A DNA stretch of 64,000 bases from Candidatus Kaiserbacteria bacterium RIFCSPHIGHO2_01_FULL_53_29 (GTDB lineage Bacteria; Patescibacteriota; Minisyncoccia; Phycocordibacterales; UBA2100). The stretch covers positions 10,712 through 74,711 of the forward strand of contig MFKT01000009.1 of assembly GCA_001781125.1 (NCBI GenBank). Reading direction: 5' to 3'. Position numbers and translations under genes: made by a program. Of this stretch, positions 1 through 61,316 are shown in pieces; position 1 is the stretch's first letter, and the number at the start of each line of letters is the position of its first letter. A model generated the notes under the pieces. That model made no database searches and was not told where the DNA came from. It saw nothing but the letters and a program-made list of their open reading frames with translations.

Positions 1-443
1 AAGTCGACGAATTTGTGGTCCACAATGTCCACCGCTTTGCGGTCAACGGCAGACTGCACCACCAAGTCTGAAATGGCTTTTATAGGGAGTGTTAATCCTT
101 CCACCTGTGCGATACCAACCACCTCGACACCGAGCACTTTATGCTTGGGTGGGCGCTCGAGATAGAAAGAAACGGCCCGTAGATATTCCTGCTCCATAGA
201 ATCGCGCTTTTTCCTTTTGGCGAGCCGCGACTTCGCTTTACCGAAATTGATCTCAAAATCCCCGACAGAGCGCATATGCTCGAGGCCGAGCTCGATCGCT
301 CCATCTTTCGCGATACCGCCGTAAAAGTGCTGCAAGGCGACATGCGCAGCCCTGCCCACGACCGCTGAAGGATTGGTGGGCGTATCGTAGACTTTCTCGA
401 CATATCGCTTGTACCACGCAAGCGGATTGCGCAAAAATGACAT
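1..443 (-). CDS. PD-(D/E)XK nuclease family protein (Cas4/RecB-like fold), C-terminus beyond window edge
   Basis: Manual minus-strand translation from ATG at 443: MSFLRNPLAWYKRYVEKVYDTPTNPSAVVGRAAHVALQHFYGG...IVDHKFVD. N-terminal pattern and the D..DxK region are typical of the PD-(D/E)XK superfamily. No stop before position 1, so the six-frame track omits it. Confidence 0.5.
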   Translation of the reverse strand, partial: MSFLRNPLAWYKRYVEKVYDTPTNPSAVVGRAAHVALQHFYGGIAKDGAIELGLEHMRSVGDFEINFGKAKSRLAKRKKRDSMEQEYLRAVSFYLERPPKHKVLGVEVVGIAQVEGLTLPIKAISDLVVQSAVDRKAVDIVDHKFVD

Positions 444-567
444 GAGCGATGAGTGGCTCCAATACGCAATAGGAACTCGTCTATCTGCCTTTCTCCGGCT
501 TTTGTGACCTTTTTTAGGGGAACCGGAAGACTCGGAATTTACCTTCATACGGGGATTTTATCACCAT

Positions 568-596
568 TTGACACATATGCATAGAGGTGGTATAAT
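568..596 (+). promoter_or_regulatory. sigma70-type promoter: TTGACA (568-573), 17-nt spacer, TATAAT (591-596)
   Basis: Perfect consensus hexamers with 17-nt spacing, about 60 nt upstream of the 657/663 start. GGAGGG Shine-Dalgarno at 650-655. Confidence 0.5.
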
Positions 597-656
597 AAAA
601 GCTGTTCATAGCGGAATCACCTCTTCAACATCAACCTCGAACCTTGCCTGGAGGGC

Positions 657-1208
657 ATGACAATGATGCGACTCGTAACGCTACGCACTCTTTGCTACGT
701 CTTCGCTATCGCAACCCTCGGTGTCTTCTGGTACTGGGTCAACACCCAGCTCGTTAATGACCTGCTCAATGGCGCCGAAAGCTCTGCCAAGGTACTCGCC
801 AAGTTCGTCGCGCGCCAGTTCGGCATCGGCCAGTACAAGACCGAGGCTATCGTGGTCGGGAAGATGCATATCGACCGTACGCTCCTGATCGCATCGCTTA
901 TGCTCGCATGGGCCATGGCGATCGAGTTCATCTTCCGGGAATTCTTCGGCAGGAACACGTGGAGGACGGTATTGGCAATCGTCGTCGTCCACAGCGCCCT
1001 TATCGCCATCTGGTTGCAGTGGACCCCGCAGACCGAAGCGTGGTACGCGGTGCACGCCGATTTGCTGAAGGCAACGTTCAGGTACTTCCGCTGGGACAAA
1101 GCGGAAACTCTGTTCCTGAACCTGCTCAAGATCCAGAGCATCCTCGTACTGGGAGAGGCCTTCTTGGTCTATTTCCTGCTCACCTCGAGGATAGGTCGGC
1201 GGCGGTAG
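657..1208 (+). CDS. hypothetical polytopic membrane protein (183 aa; start may be ATG 663)
   Basis: Several hydrophobic helices. GC-rich third codon positions. Preceded by a consensus promoter and an SD. The overlapping antisense ORF 681..1520 is judged spurious. Confidence 0.5.
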   Translation: MTMMRLVTLRTLCYVFAIATLGVFWYWVNTQLVNDLLNGAESSAKVLAKFVARQFGIGQYKTEAIVVGKMHIDRTLLIASLMLAWAMAIEFIFREFFGRNTWRTVLAIVVVHSALIAIWLQWTPQTEAWYAVHADLLKATFRYFRWDKAETLFLNLLKIQSILVLGEAFLVYFLLTSRIGRRR

Positions 1209-1290
1209 TACCGGCGCCGACAAAAAAGACGAACTCCGCTCGCTCTTTTCTTCAAGACTTCGACCGTGCCCCCGCGCACGGTCGATTTTT

Positions 1291-1319
1291 TTTGGACAAA
1301 CCCGAGGAGAAAATATACG
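1291..1319 (+). promoter_or_regulatory. island promoter-like repeat copy 1 (TTGGAC ... TATACG)
   Basis: tttggacaaacccgaggagaaaatatacg. Shares the TTTGGACAAAC core with 7 other copies in 1.2-4.7 kb. Confidence 0.4.
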
Positions 1320-1553
1320 ATGCTCTCCATGCACATCAAGGTCCGTGTGAAGACTGGCGCCAAGAACGAGAGCGTGCGAAAAGCCTCTGATATTCATTTT
1401 GAGATCTCTGTGCGCGAAAAGCCCGAAAATAACCTCGCCAATCGTCGAGTCATCGCCCTCGTCGCTATGCACCTCGGCGTTCCCGCTGTGAAAGTTCGTA
1501 TCATCAAGGGCCACCATCAACCCTCTAAAATGCTTTCTGTTGGTTTACAGTGA
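1320..1553 (+). CDS. DUF167/YggU family protein (start 1320 or 1329)
   Basis: MLSMHIKVRVKTGAKNESVRKASDIHFEISVREKPENNLANRRVIALVAMHLGVPAVKVRIIKGH matches the YggU/DUF167 pattern (KP.A......G.....L.V.v...P..G.AN..l...la..l....v.i..G). Confidence 0.6.
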   Translation: MLSMHIKVRVKTGAKNESVRKASDIHFEISVREKPENNLANRRVIALVAMHLGVPAVKVRIIKGHHQPSKMLSVGLQ

Positions 1554-1565
1554 TTGGGGAAATCG

Positions 1566-1597
1566 TTATATGCTTATTCGCGCGAATTAGAACATAG
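1566..1597. repeat. 32-bp direct repeat copy A with palindrome ATTCGCGCGAAT, downstream flank of arsR
   Basis: ttatatgcttattcgcgcgaattagaacatag. 30/32 identical to the copy at 1861..1892. Confidence 0.7.
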
Positions 1598-1853
1598 CGC
1601 TTACTGCCTTGAGGATCGCGGGAGAATCTGGCGCAATGCGGTAAAACATATTCAAGCTGCGCTGTTCTTTCTCTACAAATCCGGCTCGCTCGAGCATCGT
1701 CAGGTGTTTTGAGGTAGATGTAAAAGACAGGCGTATTACCTCGGAAATCTCGCTAACGTTTGCTTCTTTCCTTTTCCCCAATACGTTCAAGATCGCAAGT
1801 CGCCGACGATTTGCCAAAGCTTTCAGAAGCCGTTCCCCTTCCGCCTCTTTCAT
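1587..1853 (-). CDS. ArsR/SmtB family transcriptional regulator
   Basis: 88 aa. HTH region LANRRRLAILNVLGKRKEANVSEISEVIRLSFTSTSKHLTMLERAGFV is typical of ArsR. Confidence 0.8.
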   Translation of the reverse strand: MKEAEGERLLKALANRRRLAILNVLGKRKEANVSEISEVIRLSFTSTSKHLTMLERAGFVEKEQRSLNMFYRIAPDSPAILKAVSAMF

Positions 1854-1860
1854 GCATGCA

Positions 1861-1892
1861 TTATATGCTTATTCGCGCGAATAAGAATATAG
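1861..1892. promoter_or_regulatory. 32-bp repeat copy B: perfect 18-bp palindrome CTTATTCGCGCGAATAAG plus TATAAT adjacent to arsR start; probable autoregulatory operator/promoter
   Basis: ttatatgcttattcgcgcgaataagaatatag. On the minus strand this reads ...aagcaTATAATgcATG, leading into the arsR start at 1853. Confidence 0.55.
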
Positions 1893-1904
1893 ATGTGGGG
1901 ATGA

Positions 1905-1934
1905 TTTTGGATAAACGCGATATGGGGGTATAAT
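1905..1934 (+). promoter_or_regulatory. island promoter-like repeat variant (TTGGAT, 16 nt, TATAAT), 6 nt upstream of ATG 1941
   Basis: ttttggataaacgcgatatgggggtataat, then cgaccc ATG. This is leaderless geometry. Confidence 0.4.
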
Positions 1935-1940
1935 CGACCC

Positions 1941-2060
1941 ATGGCAAAAAGAGCAAGTACGGATATTAAAAACAAGAAGTCGCGTTCCAAAAAAACAAAG
2001 AAACGCCTTGAGGCCAAGCGGGTAATGCTCGCCGCCCGCGCCCAAAAAAAGCGCAGATAA
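1941..2060 (+). CDS. tiny very basic protein (39 aa), unknown
   Basis: MAKRASTDIKNKKSRSKKTKKRLEAKRVMLAARAQKKRR. Promoter-like element directly upstream. Too short for the ORF track. Confidence 0.3.
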   Translation: MAKRASTDIKNKKSRSKKTKKRLEAKRVMLAARAQKKRR

Positions 2061-2076
2061 GATAGGTTCGTCTGGC

Positions 2077-2110
2077 TTTGGACAAACCCGAGGCGGGGGT
2101 ATAGGATTCT
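2077..2110 (+). promoter_or_regulatory. island promoter-like repeat copy 2 (TTGGAC 2078-2083, 16 nt, TATAGG 2100-2105)
   Basis: tttggacaaacccgaggcgggggtataggattc. Confidence 0.45.
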
Positions 2111-2157
2111 CGCGGACTGGCATGGGGCGGACCCAAAGCCAGCGAAAGGAGCACATC

Positions 2158-2514
2158 GTGAGAAAACTCAAACCCCTTGATACGAGCACGACCATCGAGC
2201 TTGCCCGTGCTGCGCTTGCCGCGTATTTCGACGATCATTGGCCCGAGGCCAAACCGACGAGGTGCAACCCAGGCGTCGCGATGAATCACCGGGTATTCCT
2301 GGACACACGGGTCATGGAGGTGGCCCGGGCAGCGGACATCCGTCATGCGCTCGAGGTGAAAATCCCCGAGTATCTCAAGCACCAACGCTACGGCGACGCG
2401 CGGGACGCCCTCCAGAGGACGATCGGCGGTATCCGCATTGCCGGATTCATCGCCGAATTCAACATGGACCAGCTTCTGATCAAAGCGGTCGGAGAAGAAA
2501 AGAAGGTGGCCTAG
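2158..2514 (+). CDS. hypothetical protein (119 aa from GTG 2158; ORF opens at 2122)
   Basis: AAGGAG SD lies 6 nt before GTG 2158. GC3-rich. No recognisable domain. Confidence 0.4.
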   Translation: MRKLKPLDTSTTIELARAALAAYFDDHWPEAKPTRCNPGVAMNHRVFLDTRVMEVARAADIRHALEVKIPEYLKHQRYGDARDALQRTIGGIRIAGFIAEFNMDQLLIKAVGEEKKVA

Positions 2515-2569
2515 TCCGATTCACCAAAAAACACTGAAAGAGCCCGAGCCTAGGAGGACTCGGAGCAAA

Positions 2570-2606
2570 CAAGGCGGCCGGCCCTTTCCGGCCGCTCGTC
2601 TTTTTT
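2570..2606 (+). terminator. Rho-independent terminator (GGCGGCCGG / CCGGCCGC stem plus T6)
   Basis: aaggcggccggccctttccggccgctcgtctttttt, directly after the 2514 stop and before promoter repeat copy 3. Confidence 0.6.
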
Positions 2607-2640
2607 GGACAAACCCGAGGCGGGGGTATAGCATTCGAGG
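2603..2640 (+). promoter_or_regulatory. island promoter-like repeat copy 3 (TTGGAC 2605-2610, 16 nt, TATAGC 2627-2632), 8 nt before ATG 2641
   Basis: ttttggacaaacccgaggcgggggtatagcattcgagg ATG. Confidence 0.45.
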
Positions 2641-2943
2641 ATGATAGAGACGCTGCGGGAAAATCCGAAGGAAGTATTTAAGAAGGGTGATCTCGTAAAA
2701 TTCAAGGAAGGCATCGATCTCACGGCGTTCGGGAGCGAGTTTCAAGCAGCAACCGCATATCGAGTCCTGCATTTTGAACATCACGACGACGAAGGTGGGG
2801 ATGCTGTATGGATCGGTCCGAATGACATGTCTCCACAGGATGTGGAGGACTTTCAACCAGAACTCGCAGTAGAACTACGACAAGAGAAATACAAAAGGGT
2901 CTTCCCTGTCGCAACTGCGCATTTAAGAAAGGTATTGAACTGA
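2641..2943 (+). CDS. hypothetical small protein (100 aa) with KKGDLVKFKEG motif
   Basis: Leaderless-type geometry. Shares a GDLVKxK motif with ORF 3918..4208. Confidence 0.4.
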   Translation: MIETLRENPKEVFKKGDLVKFKEGIDLTAFGSEFQAATAYRVLHFEHHDDEGGDAVWIGPNDMSPQDVEDFQPELAVELRQEKYKRVFPVATAHLRKVLN

Positions 2944-2980
2944 TTTGGACAAACCTGCGGCGGGGGTATAGGATTCCGAC
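2943..2980 (+). promoter_or_regulatory. island promoter-like repeat copy 4 (TTGGAC 2945-2950, TATAGG 2967-2972)
   Basis: atttggacaaacctgcggcgggggtataggattc. Confidence 0.45.
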
Positions 2981-3020
2981 GGTCTTGTTCTGACCAAGGA
3001 TCTAAAGCAGGAGGAAAGCC

Positions 3021-3530
3021 ATGCGATTGCTTCGCAGTGCTGTGGCTTTCTGCCGCAGTGTTCTTAACTACATCGAGATCGTCTTCAACTGGAAATTGGC
3101 CTTCCAGTCAGCAATCGTCAACGGCCCGTTCGTTCTCTTGATCAACTTGGGCCACGGATGGGTCGCACTATCTGCAGGAGGCGGCCAAGCAATTCTGTCC
3201 GGTATCTTTACCGGGCTTACATCGCGTGTGGCGCAGCACTTTGCAGAAAGAATAAGAACGCCTGTGCTGGCGTATTTCTGCGGGAGTGGGGTTCCAATGC
3301 TAATGATGTTGGGCTTGAGCGCCGGCATGCATTGGTACATCATCAAGACCCCAGAGCTCCTCGCAAGTTGCGCACTGCCGACCTTCTTCACTGGCTGCTC
3401 GACTCTGTTCCTCACATTCGTGACCCGCAACCTCGCATCGTGGCCAAACTCGCTACGGTGGCAACGGTTCACGAAATGGTTCATCAAATACGCCTTGGTG
3501 AATCGCCGCGACGAGGGGAGAGACAACTAA
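3021..3530 (+). CDS. hypothetical membrane protein (169 aa)
   Basis: AGGAGG SD at 3009-3014. Multiple hydrophobic segments. Confidence 0.5.
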   Translation: MRLLRSAVAFCRSVLNYIEIVFNWKLAFQSAIVNGPFVLLINLGHGWVALSAGGGQAILSGIFTGLTSRVAQHFAERIRTPVLAYFCGSGVPMLMMLGLSAGMHWYIIKTPELLASCALPTFFTGCSTLFLTFVTRNLASWPNSLRWQRFTKWFIKYALVNRRDEGRDN

Positions 3531-3567
3531 TACGACCGGGCCTACCCTTCGCGGAGCCCAGCCGTTC

Positions 3568-3599
3568 GATTTGGACAAATTGGCTTATACGAGTAGCAT
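3568..3599 (+). promoter_or_regulatory. island promoter-like repeat copy 5 (TTGGAC 3571-3576, 17 nt, TAGCAT 3594-3599), with extended upstream homology to copy 6
   Basis: cttcgcggagcccagccgttcgatttggacaaa...tagcat. Compare copy 6: cttcaggagcccggtcgttcgatttggacaaa...tagcat. Confidence 0.4.
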
Positions 3600-3632
3600 G
3601 GCCGGCAGCTTGCATCGTTTTGGAGAAAACGA

Positions 3633-3834
3633 CATGAAAGTGCTGTGGTTCTTACGGGTCGCAGTCGCGGTCGTCTTCATCGTCTTGGCGGTGAACTCGG
3701 CCTACTTCGCGATCAACTTTGTGATCCTCGCGCCCCTGCCGGCACAGAAGGTCGTCGGCGGCATCTTCTTCGGTGTCTTAGCCCTATGTCTCCTCGCCGC
3801 TGTCATTGAAGTGACGCCGAAGGACGATCCATGA
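3633..3834 (+). CDS. small membrane protein (67 aa; alternative start ATG 3598)
   Basis: GGAG 8 nt before ATG 3633. MKVLWFLRVAVAVVFIVLAV...: two transmembrane helices. Confidence 0.4.
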
Positions 3835-3867
3835 ACACGGCCGGACTCTTCAGGAGCCCGGTCGTTC

Positions 3868-3900
3868 GATTTGGACAAAGCGGGGCGGAGAGGTAGCATT
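3868..3900 (+). promoter_or_regulatory. island promoter-like repeat copy 6 (TTGGAC 3871-3876, TAGCAT 3894-3899)
   Basis: cgatttggacaaagcggggcggagaggtagcatt. Confidence 0.4.
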
Positions 3901-3917
3901 GAAGGTATCCTTCTTCT

Positions 3918-4208
3918 ATGACCGAGAAAATGTCACAGGGTTCGATACCGATGGATCGCAGAGGACAATACGTTATGGGCAGCGGTGATCTAGTGAAGGT
4001 TAAGAGCGAAGAAAAAAGGACATACCGTATAGCAATGATACTTCCACAACCGGATAGGAGTATCAAAATGGTGATCGGTCCTCCCACATTAACGCCGCGA
4101 GATATTGACCTCTTTAAATTGGACTACCCTGCGAGTATACAAGATCCCAGATACAAGGATTGTTTTGAGATCGATGCCTCTCATGTAGATAAAATCCTGG
4201 ATTCTTAA
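3918..4208 (+). CDS. hypothetical small protein (96 aa) with SGDLVKVKSEE motif
   Basis: Possible paralog of ORF 2641..2943. Confidence 0.35.
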   Translation: MTEKMSQGSIPMDRRGQYVMGSGDLVKVKSEEKRTYRIAMILPQPDRSIKMVIGPPTLTPRDIDLFKLDYPASIQDPRYKDCFEIDASHVDKILDS

Positions 4209-4210
4209 GC

Positions 4211-4663
4211 GTGCCCTATGGTATGAGGATCCGTTTCATCCACATTCCCCTTCTGCTTCTTTTCATCGCAGCGCTGCACTTTGCCGCGCTTTATTCGGGT
4301 CTCTATGACATGCAGATAGCCGCGGGTTTTGTGTGGTGGGACAACGTTCTCCATGCGCTTGTGGGAGTAGCGTTCGGACTCGGGTGGCTGTGGCTGCTGG
4401 AGAGACTGGGATACGGCACCCGATCGCTAGCTGCAATCATCTCAACGTTCGTATTCGTCCTTTTGATGGCAATAGTGTGGGAAGGAGCCGAATATCTCGC
4501 GCGTCTTTATGTGAGAAGTCTTGCCGAAGGTTTGAAACTCTATTCACCCAATCTCACAGAATCCGGTTCGGACGTCCTCTCCAATATGGTCGGCGTGATT
4601 GCCTTGCTCGCAATCTTCAAGTTCAAAAGGCCCGATTTGGACAAACTCGAGGCGGGGGTATAG
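4211..4663 (+). CDS. hypothetical membrane protein (150 aa; start GTG 4211 or ATG 4223)
   Basis: Four hydrophobic helices. The stop lies inside promoter repeat copy 7. Confidence 0.45.
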   Translation: MPYGMRIRFIHIPLLLLFIAALHFAALYSGLYDMQIAAGFVWWDNVLHALVGVAFGLGWLWLLERLGYGTRSLAAIISTFVFVLLMAIVWEGAEYLARLYVRSLAEGLKLYSPNLTESGSDVLSNMVGVIALLAIFKFKRPDLDKLEAGV

Positions 4664-4670
4664 CATTCGT
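4634..4670 (+). promoter_or_regulatory. island promoter-like repeat copy 7 (TTGGAC 4637-4642, 16 nt, TATAGC 4659-4664)
   Basis: gatttggacaaactcgaggcgggggtatagcattcg. Confidence 0.45.
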
Positions 4671-4698
4671 TTGAATTCTTAGTTAGTTACAAATTTTT

Positions 4699-5244
4699 AT
4701 GCAAAGTGACGAAGAATCAGAACATCAGATTGAAGATTTGGAACAGTTCGACTATTTTAACGCGGCAGAAACGAGAGAGGTTGCAAAGAAGTATGCCCGC
4801 TTTATTGGCATTTTCTTAATAAACTTTTCGGAACTTGAGCACATACTAAATCTGGCCATCGCCGAAATCTTAGGCAATGGAAGAAGTCACGATATCGGAT
4901 ATGTCGTTATTGAACGTCTTTCAACGCAAAACAAAATAGAGCTATTTCATAAAACCTATTCGAGACTGGCTGGTTCATTACAAAAGTCAAAAAATAAAGT
5001 AGATGCTGTTGCGAAAAAATTAAAAGAATTAAATAAATTCAGAAATTCCTTGGTGCATGCAAACTGGCTATCCGTCGACACAAGTGGGTTTGTCAGAACT
5101 AAACTAATAGTCGGTTCTGATGATGGATATGTGAGATTTCGAAAGACCAAAATTACGCCATCAATGATCGCGCGAGAAACCAAAGCGATTCGATCTCTTA
5201 TCCTCGAAATACCCGACTTGTATGAGAAATTCCTTGAGTCTTGA
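4699..5244 (+). CDS. HEPN-like protein (Rx4H motif KFRNSLVHANW), in an AT-rich patch
   Basis: 181 aa. Local composition is clearly lower in GC than the flanks. The motif R-N-x3-H sits in an alpha-helical context, as in HEPN/Abi-type nucleases. Confidence 0.45.
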   Translation: MQSDEESEHQIEDLEQFDYFNAAETREVAKKYARFIGIFLINFSELEHILNLAIAEILGNGRSHDIGYVVIERLSTQNKIELFHKTYSRLAGSLQKSKNKVDAVAKKLKELNKFRNSLVHANWLSVDTSGFVRTKLIVGSDDGYVRFRKTKITPSMIARETKAIRSLILEIPDLYEKFLES

Positions 5245-5261
5245 TCTTGTGGCTTAGTAGC

Positions 5262-6545
5262 TTAGTAGCTTCGCAGCTGCTTCGCGCGTTCGTGGAAGCG
5301 GATGCGCTCGAGGGCTTTGGCTTCGATTTGGCGGATGCGTTCACGGGTAACGCCGAATTCACGCCCCACCTCCTCCAGTGTGAAGCAAATCCCCTCCTCG
5401 GTGAGACCGTTGCGCATTTCCAATATCTTGCGCTCCTTGGGCGAAAGCTCGTCGAGAATTTCCGTCATCTGCTCATTCAGGATTCTGCGTGAAGCATCCA
5501 TATCGGGACTGGCGATTGTGTCGTCGGCGATGAAGCTGCCCAAGGTCGAGCGCTCGTCGTCATCCTCGCCGACCGGTGACTCCAGCGAGACGGTGTCCTG
5601 ATTGATCTTCTGGATGGTGTAGATCTTCTCTATCTCGATGCCCATCTCCGCGGCAATCTCTTCGGGCAAGGGATCACGGCCGAGGTGCTGGTTGAGCTCG
5701 CGCACTTTTTGCTTGTACTTCGCGATCGTTTCCACCATGTGGACAGGAATGCGGATGGTGCGCGACTGGTCGGCCAGAGCGCGGGTGATGGCCTGGCGGA
5801 TCCACCACGTCGCATAGGTAGAGAACTTGTAGCCCTTCGTGTGGTCGAATTTGTCGACGGCTTTGAAAAGGCCGAGGTTGCCTTCCTGAATGAGGTCGAG
5901 AAGTGTGAGATCAGGGCTACGATTGACGTACTTTTTTGCGATAGAGACGACCAAGCGGAGGTTGGAACGCGCAAGGATGCTGCGAGCCTCTTCGTCGCCT
6001 GTGAGAATACGCTTCGCCAGGTCTTTTTCCTGCTGACCGTTCAAGAGCGGATATTGGCCTATCTCGCGCAGATACATCTGCACCGAATCATAGCCCGCGT
6101 CAGCCCGGCGATTCTGGAGTTTCTTGCTCGCCAAAACGGAATCTGCTGAAGTATCTTCGAGCATACCACCGCCTTCCAAGACATCGATGCCTGCCGTCCC
6201 GAAGAGGTCATACATTCTCTCGAGCAGGACGACGTTGTCCTCGATCGTCGGGAACTCGCGCAAGATCTCATCGTAAGTGATATAGCCGCGCTCTTTGCCC
6301 AGAGTGATGAGCGCATCCACTTTTCCCTGCCGCTTGCCGAGCGATGCATTTCCCCTGGAAGCAGAAACGATCTTCCTACTCCTTCGGACCGGTCTCGCAG
6401 ATTTTCTCTTAGCGTGCGGTCGCTTCTTGCCGGCTGATCGACGTTTGGCAGGACGAACAGCACGCTTCATGGGCCTGCGCATTTTCTTCGTCACTTTCTT
6501 CTTCTTATGTTTCTTCTTTTTCATATCCACAAAACTTTCGCGCAC
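5262..6545 (-). CDS. rpoD: RNA polymerase sigma factor RpoD (sigma-70)
   Basis: Regions 2-4 are conserved ([40 protein letters not shown], ...[15 protein letters not shown]). Basic K-rich N-terminus. Confidence 0.92.
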
Positions 6546-6690: not shown

Positions 6691-6717
6691 TCTATACTCT
6701 TTCGTGTATTTGTCCAA
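6691..6717 (-). promoter_or_regulatory. candidate rpoD promoter inside the dnaG 3' end (TTGGACAAAT, 15-16 nt, TATAGA)
   Basis: Minus strand reads TTGGACAAATACACGAAAGAGTATAGAG. The -35 is the same TTGGACAAA type as the island repeats. Confidence 0.3.
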
Positions 6718-8452
6718 TCCGAGTTGTCAACAGTTTACACACACCCATGAGTCGGATAACTTCCTCCTCATTACCGAGGTTTTCAGCCTTTTTAAGGGCA
6801 TACGTAGCCTCGTCGAGCTCCGCAGCAAGCAGCTCCCTGAGGATAACGTGAAGAAGCACCTTCGCCTCGCGCAAAGGTGCAGCGCTCTTGCCATAGAGGC
6901 GCTCGGCAGAGAAACGCAAGGCTTCGCGCTCGCTCTCGGAGAGTGTCGTGAGTGAAGCGAAAGCCTCTGCACCCACCGCCTCTTCCAATTCGCGCGCGTA
7001 AGCGGCAACATCTATCGAAGGCTTTTGCAAAGACTGCTGCCAGAGAAGAATTGAAAACGCTTGCCGTGCCCTTCCGAAGCCTTGGGCGAAGGAGGGCTTT
7101 GCCTTGTCCTGATCGCGAACACTATCGTCCATTGCGACGCGCGACGCAGTCGGAACCTTTGCGAGTGTTTCTGCAACAGCAGCTTCGGAGACACCGAGGC
7201 GCGCTGCGATCTCATGTAGGTATTGTTCACGCGCGATCGGCGATTGCACGTCGGAGAGGAACGGCAATACCACTTGTTCGACTGAACGGCGGAAACTATC
7301 GGGCGCTTTCATATGCTCCTCGAGCACATCGAGTAAGAAGGCAATGATGTCTTTTGCATTTCGTATCGCCTTTTTCCACGCCTCGGCACCTTCTTTGAGT
7401 ATGAGGTCGGCGGGATCGAGATCGGTGGGCAATTGCGCGACTTTGACGTTGAGCCCGCCTTGGAGCGCTGCGCGTGCCGCGCGGCCCGCCGCCTTGATAC
7501 CCGCTTCGTCGGCATCGAGTGCAATGACGAGATTGTCTGTCATGCGATGGATGAGTGCGGCGTGCTCCGAAGTGAACGCCGTACCGGATACCGCGACGGT
7601 ATTCCCCCATCCAGCCTGATGTGAAGCCAATAAATCCATTTGTCCCTCCACCAAAACGGCGCAATTGTTCTTGCGGATGGACTGTTTTGCGCGGTCGAAA
7701 CCGTACAAAATGCGGGATTTGTGGAAGAGGGGTGTTTCTGGCGAGTTCATGTATTTAGGCGGCTCAAAGCCACCGTCAGTCTTCGCCGCCTGCCCCGTGG
7801 CCGCAGGCTTTACGGGGAAGATACGGCCCGAAAATCCAACCACGCGACCGGCGGAATCCGCGATTGGGAATATGATGCGGTTGCGGAATTTGTCTGTGAG
7901 ATTGCCCCGTTCGTTTTTCTTGGCCAAACCGGCGTCAAGGATCTCTTTGTCGGTAAACTTTTTTGCCTTTAGATATTCCGACGCTTCGCTCCACGAATCC
8001 CCCGCAAGCCCGAGCCGGAATTCCTGCACGGTGGCATCGCTCATGCCGCGCTCCTTGAGGTACTTCTTCGCAGCGTCAGTAAGGCGTGAAGTATAAAAAA
8101 TGGTCGCGACTTCCATGAGCTCGAACAATCGCGCGCGCTCATCGGTCTTTTCTTTTCCACCACGTTCATACACCAATTCCACTCCCGCCTTCTCCGCAAG
8201 TACTTTCAGCGCCCCCTTAAAATCCAACCCCTCGATAGCTTCGACAAAAGAAAAAATATCCCCGCCGACATTGCACCCAAAACAATGGTACGTGCCTCTG
8301 TCCGGCGACACATGAAATGAAGGCGTGCGCTCAGCATGAAAAGGACATCTCGCGCGCAGGCTTGCCCCCGCACGTTCAAGCTTCACGTATTGCGACACCA
8401 CGTCGACGATCGAGAGTCTATCTTTAATTTGTTGAACAGTATCCCCTGCCAT
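6692..8452 (-). CDS. dnaG: DNA primase DnaG
   Basis: Zn-ribbon CPFHAERTPSFHV...CFGC and the TOPRIM region are conserved. Lies upstream of rpoD, as in the classical operon. Confidence 0.92.
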   Translation of the reverse strand: MAGDTVQQIKDRLSIVDVVSQYVKLERAGASLRARCPFHAERTPSFHVSPDRGTYHCFGCNVGGDIFSFVEAIEGLDFKGALKVLAEKAGVELVYERGGKEKTDERARLFELMEVATIFYTSRLTDAAKKYLKERGMSDATVQEFRLGLAGDSWSEASEYLKAKKFTDKEILDAGLAKKNERGNLTDKFRNRIIFPIADSAGRVVGFSGRIFPVKPAATGQAAKTDGGFEPPKYMNSPETPLFHKSRILYGFDRAKQSIRKNNCAVLVEGQMDLLASHQAGWGNTVAVSGTAFTSEHAALIHRMTDNLVIALDADEAGIKAAGRAARAALQGGLNVKVAQLPTDLDPADLILKEGAEAWKKAIRNAKDIIAFLLDVLEEHMKAPDSFRRSVEQVVLPFLSDVQSPIAREQYLHEIAARLGVSEAAVAETLAKVPTASRVAMDDSVRDQDKAKPSFAQGFGRARQAFSILLWQQSLQKPSIDVAAYARELEEAVGAEAFASLTTLSESEREALRFSAERLYGKSAAPLREAKVLLHVILRELLAAELDEATYALKKAENLGNEEEVIRLMGVCKLLTTRIGQIHERV

Positions 8453-8881: not shown

Positions 8882-9633
8882 AAAGGGAGGCCTCGCCTCC
8901 CTTTTTCCTGCTATGATAGAGGCATATGAGTTACCGACGAACACCGTTTGCTCCGGATGAGCATTATCACTGTTACACTCGAGGCATCGATGGTCGGGTG
9001 ACGTTCAAGGACAAGGAAGATTACGAACGATTCCAGGAATCTCTGTATTTGTGCAACGATAACGGTGCGTTTGATCGTAGTAATTTCCAGAAACTCAGTC
9101 ATTCCGAAATTTTTACGCGGCCCAGAAAGAGCGAGCTCGTGGCGATCGGTTCCTATAGTCTTATGCCGAATCACTTTCATGTCGGATTTCAGGAAATAGA
9201 AGAGGGAGGATCTTCAAAGTTTCTACAGAAGCTCGGCACGAGTTACAGTATGTACTTCAACGCAAAATATGCCCGAGTAGGTGGACTGTTCATTGGACCG
9301 TGCCGATCCCGCCACATCGCGACGGATCGTTATTTCAAGCAAGTCGCACAATACATCCATCTCAATGCAGCCGAGGTCTTTGAGCCGGGATGGAAACGTG
9401 GAGCTGTGAGAAATATGCGAAGTCTGGAAAGCCGCCTCAAGGAGTACGCGTTTTCAAGTTTGCGGGACTACGCAGGTACTCCACGCCCTGAACGCGCAAT
9501 GCTCAACCCAGAACTAATGCAACTTACAGCGGAAGATATGCCTCCACTTAATACGGTACTCACGGACGCTCGAGAATATTACGAAAACCTTAATCCCCTT
9601 TGAAAAGACGGGATTGGGGAGGCCCCGCCTCCC
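8882..9633 (+). mobile_element. minimal IS200/IS605-like element: a RayT-type Y1 transposase flanked by GGGAGGC-N3-GCCTCCC hairpins
   Basis: Left hairpin aaagggaggc-ctc-gcctcccttt (8882-8904). Right hairpin ggggaggc-ccc-gcctccc (9616-9633). No other gene inside. Confidence 0.55.
8926..9603 (+). CDS. REP-associated tyrosine transposase (RayT) / IS200-like Y1 transposase
   Basis: YHCYTRG motif. HxH motif (MPNHFHVGF). Catalytic Tyr region (SYSMYFNAKYARVGGLFIG). YIHLNAAE. Clearly homologous to ORF 60648..61316. Confidence 0.7.
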   Translation: MSYRRTPFAPDEHYHCYTRGIDGRVTFKDKEDYERFQESLYLCNDNGAFDRSNFQKLSHSEIFTRPRKSELVAIGSYSLMPNHFHVGFQEIEEGGSSKFLQKLGTSYSMYFNAKYARVGGLFIGPCRSRHIATDRYFKQVAQYIHLNAAEVFEPGWKRGAVRNMRSLESRLKEYAFSSLRDYAGTPRPERAMLNPELMQLTAEDMPPLNTVLTDAREYYENLNPL

Positions 9634-42275: not shown

Positions 42276-42302
42276 TCTACGCTATAGCGTAGAGATAGCA
42301 TG
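42276..42302. repeat. 27-bp direct repeat copy A with palindrome CTACGCTATAGCGTAG, downstream flank of the PaaX-like gene
   Basis: tctacgctatagcgtagagatagcatg. 24/27 identical to 42889..42915. Confidence 0.6.
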
Positions 42303-42309
42303 TCAGGAA

Positions 42310-42882
42310 CTAACGTTTTCGCAGGCCAAATTCCTTTCGCAAGTGAGAATCCCCTTCAAGTTCGTCTACAATCATATATAGAACATCCCTTCCGATCTTG
42401 AAATCGGCTTTCAGAAGGACAATCAGGTCCTCGCAATCATACGGATATACCCACACGCTGTCCTGCAGACGCACGAAGCCGATTCCCATGACTGTGCGGC
42501 GGATCTTATCGCGCAATGATTTGCGATACTCCGGAACATCAAAGATAAGCACACGCCATCGTCCGTCCCACCGCTTCGGCTTTGTAATTGAATAGCGGGA
42601 CTCTAACAATGCGGTCGCGCCGACACCTTTCGGTGTGAGTCGAAGAAAACCCTTGTTCCACGTAAGTAGTCCTTGATCGGTCAGCCTTTTACGAGTACGT
42701 CCTATGACACTCGGATCGCTTGATCCTTTTGGGAGGAGCCCCATTTTATAGAGCGCCATCGGCAAGTTGGGCGCCATTACGACAACGCCAGCGAGTGCCG
42801 AGAGTTTGATGACTGTAAGAATCGCACGTTTGAGATCGCGCCTTCGCTTCCGTTTTCTTCCCGACTCTTCGATCGTCCCCAT
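42310..42882 (-). CDS. PaaX-like transcriptional regulator
   Basis: KRWDGRWRVLIFDVPEYRKSLRDKIRRTVMGIGFVRLQDSVWVYP matches the PaaX C-terminal signature (WDG.W, GFG). Confidence 0.55.
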   Translation of the reverse strand: MGTIEESGRKRKRRRDLKRAILTVIKLSALAGVVVMAPNLPMALYKMGLLPKGSSDPSVIGRTRKRLTDQGLLTWNKGFLRLTPKGVGATALLESRYSITKPKRWDGRWRVLIFDVPEYRKSLRDKIRRTVMGIGFVRLQDSVWVYPYDCEDLIVLLKADFKIGRDVLYMIVDELEGDSHLRKEFGLRKR

Positions 42883-42888
42883 GCTATT

Positions 42889-42915
42889 TCTACGCTATAG
42901 CGTGATTATAGCATG
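42889..42915. promoter_or_regulatory. 27-bp repeat copy B: palindrome CTACGCTATAGCGTG plus TATAAT on the minus strand, upstream of the PaaX-like gene
   Basis: Minus strand reads catgcTATAATcacgctatagcgtagaaatagcATG. Confidence 0.5.
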
Positions 42916-60638: not shown

Positions 60639-60647
60639 ACTGCTGTC

Positions 60648-61316
60648 ATGGAACTCTATCACGCGCTCAATAGAGGTGTTGAGAAACGCAACCTATTTCA
60701 AAACGACTCGGATCGGATCAGATTCGTGCACGACATGTATGAATTCAACGATACAAAACCGGCAGGAAGTGTATATCATTCGTTCCGGCGAGGCGATATT
60801 CTGGATTTACGAAATCCAGATATTCGAGTTCGAGAACGAATTGTCGATATCCATGGATGGTGCATCATGGGCAACCACTATCACTTACTTCTCTCGGAGA
60901 TACAGGAAGGGGGCTTACGTCTATTCCTCCGCAAACTTAATGTGGGGTATGCGAATTATTTCAATGAAAAATACAAGAGAGTCGGGACGCTTTTTCAGGG
61001 ACGAACGAAGAGGATTCGAATAGATTCCGATGCTTATTTCCTGCACATACTCCACTATATTCATCTCAATCCTCTCGACTTCTTGAAAAGCGCGGAACAT
61101 TGGCGCACGCTTGAAGTCAAGAACGCAAAACAGGCATTGGGGCACCTTGAGAAATACCGCTGGAGCAGCTATTTGGATTATTGCGGAAAGAAAAATTTCC
61201 CGTCGGTTATTACAAAAGAGTTGTTCGGAGACGTATTTAAGAATTACGAGCGAACTATTCGCTCATACATGGAGGATATTGAGCTTGCGACCGTAAAGCC
61301 GTTGTTGCTAGAGTAA
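60648..61316 (+). CDS. second RayT/IS200-like Y1 tyrosine transposase paralog
   Basis: YHALNRG, MGNHYHLLL (HxH), GYANYFNEKYKRVGTLFQG (catalytic Tyr), YIHLNPL, RWSSY. AT-rich. ORF opens at 60501. Confidence 0.7.
   Translation: MELYHALNRGVEKRNLFQNDSDRIRFVHDMYEFNDTKPAGSVYHSFRRGDILDLRNPDIRVRERIVDIHGWCIMGNHYHLLLSEIQEGGLRLFLRKLNVGYANYFNEKYKRVGTLFQGRTKRIRIDSDAYFLHILHYIHLNPLDFLKSAEHWRTLEVKNAKQALGHLEKYRWSSYLDYCGKKNFPSVITKELFGDVFKNYERTIRSYMEDIELATVKPLLLE

What the first reader, a model, noticed from the sequence alone, without database searches (positions are those of the whole stretch)
1260..5250. Island of about ten single-gene modules, each headed by a near-identical promoter-like repeat
Eight copies of a 30-35-bp element occur at 1291, 1905, 2077, 2603, 2943, 3568, 3868 and 4634. 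The consensus is gaTTTGGACAAAcccgaggcGGGGGTATAG(G/C)ATTC, with -35-like TTGGAC, a 16-17 nt spacer and a -10-like TATAGS/TAGCAT. Each copy directly precedes a different small ORF: DUF167, a 39-aa basic peptide, three small soluble proteins, three small membrane proteins, and a HEPN-like protein. Four copies share an identical GC-rich spacer (AAACCCGAGGCGGGGG) containing a mini-palindrome CCCG-agg-CGGG. That is far more conservation than independent promoters need, so the modules probably share ancestry or a common regulator. A terminator followed by a promoter separates at least one pair (2570-2640). The rpoD promoter has the same TTGGACAAA -35 type. The layout resembles a phage early or host-takeover region, or a cassette array; it is not an integron (no attC cores). 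The function of nearly all encoded proteins is unknown.
Basis: seen in the sequence. Interest (0 to 1): 0.7.

Follow-up and report, generated by a model that had tools for sequence, protein, structure and literature searches.

The report
Promoter-headed gene-cassette island beside rpoD
In this Kaiserbacteria (candidate phyla radiation) chromosome, eight small unrelated genes are each headed by a copy of one ~33-bp promoter, and that promoter marks a gene-swapping hot spot at the same place, between rpoD and a nuclease gene, in related genomes.

Summary
The repeat is real. TTTGGACAAA occurs exactly seven times, plus one 1-mismatch copy, all on the + strand between 1291 and 4645. It occurs nowhere else in the 64 kb.

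It behaves as a sigma-70-type promoter: -35 T(T)GGACA, a 17-18 nt purine-rich spacer, -10 TAGSAT. Across 47 distinct copies from relatives, an ATG sits exactly 7 nt after the -10 in nine of them. That fits leaderless mRNAs, here for F, the 39-aa peptide and DUF167.

It is not the organism's standard promoter. Canonical TTGACA-N16/17-TATAAT promoters occur elsewhere in the window. In eight loci collected without reference to the motif, TTGGAYAA occurs 15 times in 26 kb of island DNA against once in 118 kb of flanks.

The island sits between rpoD and a PD-(D/E)XK nuclease gene throughout a Kaiserbacteria clade, and one relative has no island there. Its cargo differs from genome to genome. Shared cassettes have homology that starts at the first T of the element. 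No recombinase, attC-like site or phage gene was found.

The claimed rpoD promoter match is dnaG coding sequence and is not conserved. Four spacers are near-identical, not identical.

Verdict: a promoter-delimited cassette island, a new variant of known kinds (putative mobile promoters, integron- or rAID-like arrays). Function rests on computation only.

The parts
1..548 (-). 5' part of the PD-(D/E)XK nuclease gene; conserved left flank of the island
   Evidence: PF12705 on the full-length gene in the same genome (L032 4975-5850) and on the L006 orthologue. 70-76% nucleotide identity to relatives.
568..596 (+). Canonical TTGACA-17-(TG)TATAAT promoter of gene A; not a member of the repeat family
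   Evidence: 12 of 12 consensus match.
657..1208 (+). Gene A, 183-aa membrane protein of no known family; absent from this position in relatives
1260..1285 (+). Terminator-like hairpin whose T-run continues into element copy 1
   Evidence: -19.6 kcal/mol.
1291..1323 (+). Element copy 1 (TTTGGACAAACCCGAGGAGAAAATATACGAT); -10 TACGAT at 1316-1321
   Evidence: weight-matrix score 23.6 bits.
1329..1553 (+). DUF167 gene, probably leaderless (ATG 8 nt after the -10)
   Evidence: PF02594, E 1e-14. The collection's called gene starts at 1329.
1566..1597 (.). 30-32-nt palindrome TTATATGCTTATTCGCGCGAATTAGAACATAG at the 3' end of the ArsR-type gene
1587..1853 (-). ArsR/MarR-type winged-helix regulator; a recurrent but not universal island gene
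   Evidence: PF01022, E 1e-8. 67-93% identical copies in L014, L015, L018, L020, L022, L024, L025.
1861..1892 (.). Second copy of the palindrome. It overlaps the -10 (TATAAT, 1865-1860 on the - strand) of the leaderless ArsR-type gene; probable operator.
1906..1938 (+). Element copy 2, marginal (TTTGGATAAA...GGGGGTATAAT); -10 TATAAT at 1929-1934
   Evidence: 9.7 bits.
1941..2060 (+). Gene D, 39-aa very basic peptide, leaderless (ATG 7 nt after the -10). It is the most widely conserved island gene.
   Evidence: Only 11 clusters among 1.84 billion representatives.
2077..2109 (+). Element copy 3, consensus form; predicted transcription start near 2114
   Evidence: 55.6 bits.
2158..2514 (+). Gene E (118 aa from the GTG after an AGGAG site; the ORF from 2122 gives 130 aa); soluble, no family
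   Evidence: 41% homologue behind an element in L014.
2573..2596 (+). Terminator-like hairpin running into copy 4
   Evidence: -18.9 kcal/mol.
2604..2636 (+). Element copy 4, consensus form; -10 TAGCAT at 2629-2634
   Evidence: 55.3 bits.
2641..2943 (+). Gene F (100 aa), leaderless (ATG 7 nt after the -10); paralogue of I
2944..2976 (+). Element copy 5; starts on the base after F's stop codon
   Evidence: 51.9 bits.
3021..3530 (+). Gene G, 169 aa; hydrophobic and probably a membrane protein (the simple scan flags one segment)
   Evidence: 44-47% homologues in L012 and L030.
3570..3601 (+). Element copy 6, short-spacer form (TTGGAC-17-TAGCAT)
3634..3834 (+). Gene H, 66-aa protein with two predicted membrane segments
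3837..3865 (+). Hairpin upstream of copy 7
   Evidence: -17.9 kcal/mol.
3870..3901 (+). Element copy 7, short-spacer form. It shares 27 nt of upstream sequence with copy 6.
   Evidence: repeat family D8.
3918..4208 (+). Gene I (96 aa), paralogue of F
   Evidence: BLASTP E 1e-9.
4223..4663 (+). Gene J, DUF2238 membrane protein with no element of its own. Its last 8 codons (LDKLEAGV) and its stop codon are encoded by copy 8.
4636..4668 (+). Element copy 8, consensus form
   Evidence: 53.8 bits.
4699..5244 (+). Gene K, HEPN-like, GC 0.38; probably foreign DNA placed behind a resident promoter
   Evidence: The 47% homologue in a 38% GC organism has no element.
5262..6545 (-). rpoD; conserved right flank, convergent with the island, with no terminator in the 17-nt gap

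Best explanation
The repeats are one family of sigma-70-type promoters that occurs only in this island. The -35 is T(T)GGACA inside an invariant TTTGGACAAA. The spacer is 17-18 nt, G/A-rich, with consensus CCYGAGGCGGGGGTA. The -10 is TAGSAT.

Each copy drives its own one- or two-gene transcript. Several transcripts are leaderless, and three units in the window end in a hairpin that abuts the next promoter.

The island (window 549-5261) is an accessory-gene hot spot inserted between rpoD and a PD-(D/E)XK nuclease gene in a clade of Kaiserbacteria.

Genes are gained and lost as [promoter + gene (+ terminator)] units, with breakpoints at the promoter element. The simplest mechanism is homologous recombination between the repeated elements, within a genome or with imported DNA.

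The promoter belongs to the island and not to the incoming gene, so foreign or orphan ORFs are expressed on arrival.

Shown by sequence comparison: the repeat, its restriction to the island, the fixed ATG position, the synteny, the variable cargo and the breakpoints. Inferred: that the copies fire, which sigma factor or regulator reads them, and the recombination mechanism.
For: Promoter function.
- The hexamers and their spacing match the consensus scan at 7 of the 8 copies.
- Among 47 distinct copies from 24 loci, ATG lies at offset +36 from TTGGAC (7 nt after TAGCAT) in 9 copies. Other positions have about one each. Binomial P = 4e-8. At least 7 unrelated gene families are involved.
- In copies not forced by my search pattern, TAGSAT recurs 17-18 nt after TTGGAC.

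Not the standard promoter.
- Canonical TTGACA-16/17-TATAAT promoters occur at 568 and near 34.9, 36.1 and 54.2 kb.
- A weight matrix trained on other genomes hits only island copies in the 64 kb.
- The strict pattern searched in 185,579 species genomes matched CPR genomes only at this locus.
- All 18 metagenome hits are CPR, and all but two (L017, L029) carry at least one island marker gene.
- In 8 loci anchored on the PD-(D/E)XK protein, TTGGAYAA occurs 15 times in 26.4 kb of island against once in 117.7 kb of flank, P = 1e-22.

Hot spot.
- The flanks are conserved: tsaD, valS, PrsW, HSP20 and PD-(D/E)XK on one side, rpoD, dnaG and rpoC on the other.
- L039 has rpoD and the nuclease gene 23 nt apart, so it has no island.
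- Cargo is mostly singleton families.
- Pfam-annotated cargo includes methyltransferase, HIT and GNAT, adh_short, AIPR and an 8-kb complex-I/hydrogenase-like operon.

Cassette boundaries.
- A cassette shared by L006, L013 and L014 has homology starting at the T before TTGGAC and sits next to different neighbours in each.
- L013 and L014 differ by exactly one [cargo + element] unit.
- Elements with no cargo lie next to rpoD in L012 and L019.

Promoter supplied by the island.
- Cargo GC3 ranges from 0.37 to 0.80.
- K's relative in another organism lacks the element.
Against: - There are no transcription-start or expression data.
- Conservation extends beyond what sigma-70 needs: the AAA after the -35 and the G-run. 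A bound factor, or a second role for the element, is therefore likely and is not identified.
- Some copies keep the spacer and -10 but have GCTATGCAAA in place of TTTGGACAAA.
- About 33 bp of homology is close to the lower limit for RecA-dependent recombination (general knowledge).
- No structural variant of the island was seen among 19 contigs of this same population.
- Most related loci were retrieved with a pattern that forces the consensus, which inflates the apparent spacer conservation.
- Some islands anchored on the nuclease gene have no elements (L038, L040).
Confidence: 0.7

Rival explanations
1. The element is above all the binding site of a dedicated regulator or an alternative sigma factor. 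The island would then be one co-regulated regulon, and the conservation outside the hexamers would reflect that factor. This could hold together with the best explanation.
For: - TTTGGACAAA is invariant over 10 nt and nearly palindromic (TTTG-GA-CAAA).
- The T before TTGGAC and the AT after TATAGS are conserved although my searches did not force them.
- Copies within a genome are no more alike than copies between genomes, permutation p = 0.41. This argues for constraint and against local duplication.
- A regulator gene (ArsR type) and a conserved 39-aa basic peptide are encoded in the island.
Against: - The ArsR-type gene is absent from several islands that have elements (L006, L013, L019, L021).
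- That regulator has a different, far more typical operator: the 30-nt palindrome.
- The CCCG/CGGG dyad in the spacer is not conserved; only the purine richness is.
- No second sigma gene lies in the window.
Confidence: 0.3
2. The element, or its TTTGGACAA core, is a site-specific recombination site for an unidentified recombinase. This would be an analogue of integron attC/attI, and the promoter likeness would be secondary.
For: - Cassette homology begins exactly at TTTGGACAAA.
- TTTGGACAA(C) also precedes palindrome units at cassette junctions.
- Tandem partial elements occur in L013.
- ORFs run into the element and stop at its TAG: J here and the 282-aa protein in L006.
- A Y1 (HUH) transposase-like gene lies 3.7 kb away at 8926-9603.
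Against: - No tyrosine or serine recombinase Pfam family lies within 10 kb on either side in any of about ten loci.
- The Y1-like gene is not conserved next to the island: it is absent in L036 and L037, and it has a paralogue 52 kb away.
- The element has no hairpin or inverted-repeat structure, and no reverse-strand copies exist in the islands.
- The fixed ATG position is explained only by transcription initiation.
Confidence: 0.12
3. It is simply the organism's standard strong promoter, which happens to be clustered here.
For: The hexamers and spacing are compatible with sigma-70.
Against: - Other promoters in the same window are TTGACA/TATAAT.
- There are no weight-matrix hits outside the island in 64 kb.
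- The island-to-flank density ratio is 67-fold in the unbiased loci.
- Whole-genome pattern hits in related MAGs fall only at this locus.
Confidence: 0.04
4. It is a remnant of a phage early or host-takeover region, or some other integrated mobile element.
For: It has many small orphan ORFs, each with a strong promoter and some with terminators. K is HEPN-like, and one relative's island carries AIPR.
Against: - No PHROG or PADLOC hits for the cargo.
- In IMG/VR the element gives one chance hit, in a 33% GC contig, and the palindrome gives none.
- There is no integrase, no att-like flanking repeats and no structural or replication genes.
- The chromosomal position is the same in many genomes with different cargo.
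Confidence: 0.03

Closest known systems
Putative mobile promoters (PMPs; Matus-Garcia, Nijveen and van Passel, Nucleic Acids Res 2012, PMC3488235)
   Same: One highly similar promoter-bearing upstream sequence sits in front of non-homologous genes within a genome, and is shared between related genomes. PMPs were proposed as a way to switch on silent or newly arrived genes.
   Different: PMPs were defined as 50-100 nt at 80% identity or more, and are generally dispersed. Here the conserved unit is only 32-35 nt. All copies sit in one syntenic island, and the element coincides with cassette gain and loss breakpoints.
[quoted passage not shown]
   Same: [quoted passage not shown]
   Different: rAID is defined by a tyrosine recombinase, low-GC cargo and orphan immunity genes. 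Here there is no recombinase, cargo GC is mixed, no immunity domain was recognised, and the phylum and chromosomal context are different.
Chromosomal integron cassette arrays
   Same: A co-oriented array of small, mostly orphan genes that differs between close relatives while sitting at a fixed chromosomal position.
   Different: Integron cassettes are promoterless, end in a structured attC site and need IntI. Here each unit starts with its own promoter, there is no attC-like structure and there is no integrase.
Minimal mobile elements of Neisseria (named from my own knowledge, not checked in the paper library)
   Same: Different whole-gene cassettes are found between the same two conserved flanking genes in different strains, with exchange attributed to transformation and homologous recombination.
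   Different: Those sites usually hold a single cassette and have no repeated promoter element inside.

Membership tests
Sigma-70-type promoter | -35-like and -10-like hexamers 16-18 nt apart, with A at position 2 and T at position 6 of the -10 | tested here: met
   TGGACA-16/17-TA(G/C)(G/C)AT at 7 of 8 copies. Copy 2 is TTGGAT-16-TATAAT. TAGSAT lies 17-18 nt after TTGGAC in unforced copies.
Sigma-70-type promoter | Upstream of, and co-oriented with, a gene, at a distance compatible with a transcription start | tested here: met
   All 8 window copies meet this. ATG lies exactly 7 nt after the -10 in 9 of 47 copies, P = 4e-8.
Sigma-70-type promoter | Mapped transcription start or promoter activity | not testable with these tools
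   No transcriptome data are available.
Integron | IntI-type tyrosine recombinase next to the array | tested here: not met
   No recombinase Pfam family within 10 kb on either side in W/L032, L036-L043.
Integron | attC sites: imperfect inverted repeats at the 3' end of each cassette | tested here: not met
   The repeat is direct, is not a hairpin, and lies at the 5' end of the units. Upstream hairpins are unrelated in sequence and are not general.
Integron | Promoterless cassettes read from a common Pc promoter | tested here: not met
   Each unit carries its own promoter-like element.
rAID (Bacteroidales) | Predicted tyrosine recombinase at the head of the array | tested here: not met
   Same evidence as for the integron.
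rAID (Bacteroidales) | [quoted passage not shown] | tested here: met
rAID (Bacteroidales) | Cargo consists of orphan immunity genes; GC below 41% | tested here: not met
   No immunity or toxin family in Pfam, NCBIfam or PADLOC. Cargo GC is 0.38-0.59.
Putative mobile promoter (PMP) | At least 80% identity over 50-100 nt upstream of non-homologous genes | tested here: not met
   Similarity is confined to 32-35 nt. The concept applies, but the length criterion fails.
MITE or REP-type repeat | Terminal inverted repeats or a palindromic hairpin, dispersed through the genome | tested here: not met
   No reverse-strand copies, no inverted-repeat partner, and restricted to the island.
Prophage or phage early region | Phage hallmark genes or similarity to viral sequences | tested here: not met
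HEPN domain (gene K) | Conserved Rx4-6H motif | tested here: met
   R115 and H120 are invariant in 8 homologues.
HEPN domain (gene K) | HEPN helical-bundle fold, or a family model above threshold | tested here: inconclusive

The most novel reading that the evidence does not exclude
The element is a dual-purpose module. The same 33 bp would serve as the expression signal and as the recombination handle of an integrase-free gene-capture platform in CPR bacteria. That would make it a functional analogue of an integron, in which newly captured ORFs are wired at once to a resident promoter, often as leaderless mRNAs. The platform would be controlled by island-encoded factors (the ArsR-type repressor with its palindrome, and possibly the conserved 39-aa basic peptide). 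Because it is placed convergent to rpoD with no terminator, island transcription could also feed back on sigma-factor expression.
Probability: 0.25. Interest if true: 0.8.

Novelty: new variant of a known kind. Interest (0 to 1): 0.55.

Why it matters
CPR (Patescibacteria) bacteria have tiny genomes and almost no characterised gene regulation. How they acquire and express accessory genes is largely unknown.

This locus gives three things:
- A defined candidate promoter for Kaiserbacteria, with predicted start sites and a leaderless architecture. It can be tested and could be useful for genetic tools.
- A fixed chromosomal hot spot whose content can be compared across genomes to read out recent gene flow.
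- A candidate example of cassette turnover that needs no integrase.

I found no description of it in the paper library.

Tried and rejected
- Rfam, at gathering thresholds and at E <= 1: nothing for the element or the 5' UTRs.
- Sigma-54 reading (GG-N10-GC): the spacing is off by one, there is no TTGC, and the fixed ATG fits a -10/+1 geometry. Rejected by inspection.
- SigB/SigF-type reading, prompted by the GGGTAT: no matching -35 and no second sigma gene in the window. Not pursued.
- Within-genome homogenisation of the spacer: not seen, p = 0.41.
- Terminator hairpin as a general part of the unit: present at only 3 of 8 window copies, and the whole set is not different from controls, p = 0.15.
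- Strain-level gain or loss inside this population: all 19 contigs carrying the identical ArsR-type protein are colinear with the window. Apparent differences were gene-calling artefacts at contig ends.
- Phage link: PHROGs and two IMG/VR scans were negative.
- Defence link: PADLOC was negative except for a faint HEPN hit for K.
- Peptide D as a ribosomal protein: no PDB, Pfam or NCBIfam hit, and only 11 clusters worldwide.
- Y1-transposase-like gene as the mobilising enzyme: not conserved next to the island.
- Foldseek against the PDB for K: nothing significant.

Full report
**1. The observation**

The exact decamer TTTGGACAAA starts at 1291, 2077, 2604, 2944, 3570, 3870 and 4636. TTTGGATAAA starts at 1906. 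All eight are on the + strand, and there is no exact copy in the remaining 60 kb. Base composition predicts about 0.08 exact copies in 64 kb.

Four copies (2077, 2604, 2944, 4636) read TTTGGACAAAC(C/T)(C/T)G(A/C)GGCGGGGGTATAG(G/C)ATTC. Two of these four have identical spacers, and the other two differ at 1 and 2 positions. Copies 3570 and 3870 are one base shorter and share the -35 and TAGCAT. Copies 1291 and 1906 are more diverged.

Every copy lies 20-80 nt upstream of a different ORF on the same strand. Terminator-like hairpins run directly into the T-run of the element at 1260-1285 and 2573-2596 and at 3837-3865.

**2. The genes**

The island (about 549-5261) holds eleven genes.

| Gene | Coordinates | Description |
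|---|---|---|
| A | 657-1208 | membrane protein with its own canonical TTGACA-17-TATAAT promoter at 568-596 |
| B | 1329-1553 | DUF167 |
| ArsR-type | 1587-1853, - strand | ArsR/MarR-type winged-helix regulator |
| D | 1941-2060 | 39-aa very basic peptide |
| E | 2158-2514 | soluble, no family |
| F | 2641-2943 | soluble, paralogue of I |
| G | 3021-3530 | hydrophobic, probably membrane |
| H | 3634-3834 | small membrane protein |
| I | 3918-4208 | soluble, paralogue of F |
| J | 4223-4663 | DUF2238 membrane protein, no promoter of its own |
| K | 4699-5244 | HEPN-like |

Only DUF167, the regulator and DUF2238 match protein families. PADLOC and PHROGs give nothing for the cargo. F and I are paralogues.

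F is identical to a hypothetical protein of Candidatus Kaiserbacteria bacterium RIFCSPHIGHO2_01_FULL_53_2x. The same contig recurs in JGI and ENA groundwater assemblies.

**3. Is it a promoter?**

The consensus scan reads the copies as TGGACA-16/17-TAG(G/C)AT.

The strongest argument comes from relatives. I collected 47 distinct copies from 24 loci. In nine of them an ATG lies exactly 36 nt after the T of TTGGAC, which is 7 nt after TAGCAT. Every other offset holds about one ATG. The binomial P is 4e-8. At least seven unrelated gene families are involved.

This is the geometry of leaderless mRNAs that begin at the transcription start. In the window it applies to F (ATG 2641), D (ATG 1941, 7 nt after TATAAT) and DUF167 (ATG 1329, which is also the gene start called in the collection). 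The leadered genes E, G and H have AGGAG-type ribosome-binding sites.

In copies my search patterns did not force, TAGSAT again lies 17-18 nt after TTGGAC. No Rfam family matches.

**4. Is it just the standard promoter?**

No. Elsewhere in the window, promoters are canonical TTGACA-16/17-(TG)TATAAT. A weight matrix trained only on other genomes scores the island copies at 52-56, 24 and 10 bits, and nothing else in the 64 kb reaches 8 bits.

An exact-pattern scan of 185,579 species genomes gave 12 hits. Seven look like chance (AT-rich spacers, unrelated phyla). The five in CPR genomes all lie next to dnaG-rpoD. A stricter pattern in the metagenome collection gave 18 loci. All are CPR, and all but two (L017, L029) carry at least one island marker gene.

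Those loci were selected by the motif, so I also took eight loci through homologues of the flanking PD-(D/E)XK protein. There, TTGGA(C/T)AA occurs 15 times in 26.4 kb of island DNA, always on the island-gene strand. It occurs once in 117.7 kb of flanks, and that single site lies in dnaG coding sequence. P is about 1e-22.

**5. The locus in relatives**

The flanks are constant. On one side lie an ABC transporter gene, tsaD, valS, PrsW, HSP20 and the PD-(D/E)XK gene. On the other lie rpoD, dnaG and then rpoC-rpoB.

In one Parcubacteria relative, rpoD and the nuclease gene are 23 nt apart, so there is no island (L039). In the others the gap holds 0.7-8 kb of genes on the opposite strand.

Content differs widely, and most cargo families are singletons. 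Cargo with a Pfam family includes methyltransferase, HIT and GNAT, a short-chain dehydrogenase, rhodanese, an endonuclease/exonuclease/phosphatase-family protein and AIPR, and in L040 an 8-kb complex-I/hydrogenase-like operon with no elements.

Recurrent island genes are the 39-aa peptide D and, in about half of the islands, the ArsR-type regulator. No recombinase family lies within 10 kb on either side in any locus.

**6. Cassette behaviour**

A small membrane-protein cassette shared by L006, L013 and L014 has nucleotide homology that begins at the T before TTGGAC. It ends after the gene's hairpin, at the next TTTGGACAA. Its neighbours differ in all three genomes.

L013 and L014 differ by exactly one [cargo + element] unit. 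Elements without cargo lie next to rpoD in L012 and L019, and L013 has tandem partial elements.

In the window, J's last eight codons and its stop are encoded by K's promoter (LDKLEAGV-stop). A 282-aa protein in L006 ends the same way.

Cargo GC3 ranges from 0.37 (K) to 0.80 (A), yet the promoters are alike. K's 47% homologue in a 38% GC organism has no element. The promoter therefore belongs to the island, not to the incoming gene.

**7. What keeps the sequence conserved?**

The consensus spacer recurs between genomes whose DnaG proteins are only 68-79% identical. Copies within a genome are no more alike than copies between genomes, p = 0.41.

That argues against simple recent local duplication and for constraint on the sequence, or for repeated exchange. 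The caveat is that most loci were selected with a pattern containing part of the spacer.

In unforced copies the spacer is looser but still G/A-rich, roughly SCYGRRGCGRRGGTA. A few copies keep the spacer and -10 but carry GCTATGCAAA where TTTGGACAAA should be. I cannot say which factor reads these extra positions.

**8.

The 'rpoD promoter' TTGGACAAA at 6709-6718 (-) is the dnaG C-terminus (…RIGQIHERV-stop). In relatives the same codons read TTGGACAAT, TTGCACAAT or TTGCGCAAC. It is therefore not evidence for a shared promoter type.

The phage reading finds no support. 'Not an integron' is correct.

**9. Comparison with known systems**

In concept this is a family of putative mobile promoters (PMC3488235). 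In layout it resembles rAID clusters, which combine a recombinase, an array of short co-oriented genes and conserved intergenic motifs (PMC12247911), and it resembles integron arrays.

It fails defining features of each:
- the conserved stretch is too short for the PMP definition;
- there is no recombinase;
- there is no attC;
- the cassettes carry their own promoters;
- no immunity domains were recognised.

I found nothing on such an island in CPR bacteria in the paper library.

**10. Verdict**

This is a real, non-random, lineage-wide feature. The best reading is an island-specific promoter family that delimits independently transcribed, exchangeable gene cassettes at a hot spot between rpoD and a nuclease gene.

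My confidence is about 0.8 for promoter function, about 0.75 for cassette-wise turnover at the elements, and about 0.4 for homologous recombination between elements as the mechanism. All of this rests on sequence comparison, and no expression data were available.

Noticed in passing
window 1566-1597 and 1861-1892: A 30-32-nt near-perfect palindrome (TATATGCTTATTCGCGCGAATAAGAATATA) brackets the ArsR-type gene. Its core, TTCGCGCGAA, occurs nowhere else in the 64 kb. The right-hand copy overlaps the -10 (TATAAT, 6 nt before the ATG) of the apparently leaderless regulator gene, so it is probably its operator. Relatives have 2-5 copies per island, often about 15 nt upstream of a promoter element and flanking cassettes of either orientation. 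They also occur in islands with no ArsR-type gene (L019). The unit palindrome-gene-palindrome is itself present or absent between genomes.
   Followed up: partly
window 8926-9603 and 60642-61187: Two paralogous (36% identical) Y1/HUH transposase-like genes with an NHFHV motif and YIHLN. They give only weak hits to REP-associated tyrosine transposase (E 7.5e-4) and to Pfam Y1_Tnp (E 2e-3). L012 has one next to dnaG, but L036 and L037 do not. No associated REP-like repeats were looked for.
   Followed up: partly
window 42276-42293 and 42889-42903: A 15-nt sequence, TCTACGCTATAGCGT (palindromic at the first site), followed by ATAGCATG, occurs on both sides of the gene at 42310-42882. This mirrors the way the island palindrome brackets the ArsR-type gene. 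Chance expectation is 0.
   Followed up: no
window 5244-5262: K and rpoD converge with a 17-nt gap and no terminator-like structure (fold z-score +0.98). Island transcription should therefore run antisense into the 3' end of rpoD, and rpoD transcription into K. In L012 and L019 a cargo-less element points straight into rpoD.
   Followed up: partly
window 1941-2060: The 39-aa lysine/arginine-rich peptide D is the best-conserved island gene (76-90% identity in relatives). It is always divergent from the nuclease gene and always leaderless. It has no hit in PDB, Pfam or NCBIfam, and only 11 clusters among 1.84 billion representative proteins.
   Followed up: partly
window 4636-4663; L006 4693-4719 (- strand): In one reading frame the promoter element encodes LDK(L/A)EAGV followed by a stop codon. 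Two unrelated upstream ORFs (J here and a 282-aa protein in L006) end with exactly this peptide. Cassette junctions have therefore fused coding sequence to the element.
   Followed up: partly
L039 1-6732: In the Parcubacteria relative that lacks the island, one called gene product of more than 2283 aa carries both RpoB and RpoC domains. This may be an rpoB-rpoC fusion, or it may be a gene-calling or assembly artefact.
   Followed up: no
L040 2466-9662: In one Kaiserbacteria genome the rpoD/nuclease gap holds an 8-kb operon with complex-I/hydrogenase-like subunits (Complex1_30kDa/49kDa, Proton_antipo_M, NADHdh, Oxidored_q6) plus DUF167 and a 39-aa gene. It has no TTGGACAA elements.
   Followed up: no
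L048-L053 (contig ends at window positions ~1222-1236, ~2469-2510 and 2705): Several short contigs of this same population, from different samples, start or end at nearly the same island positions, close to cassette junctions. This may reflect assembly-graph branching from strain variation, but every contig that spans these points is colinear with the window.
   Followed up: partly
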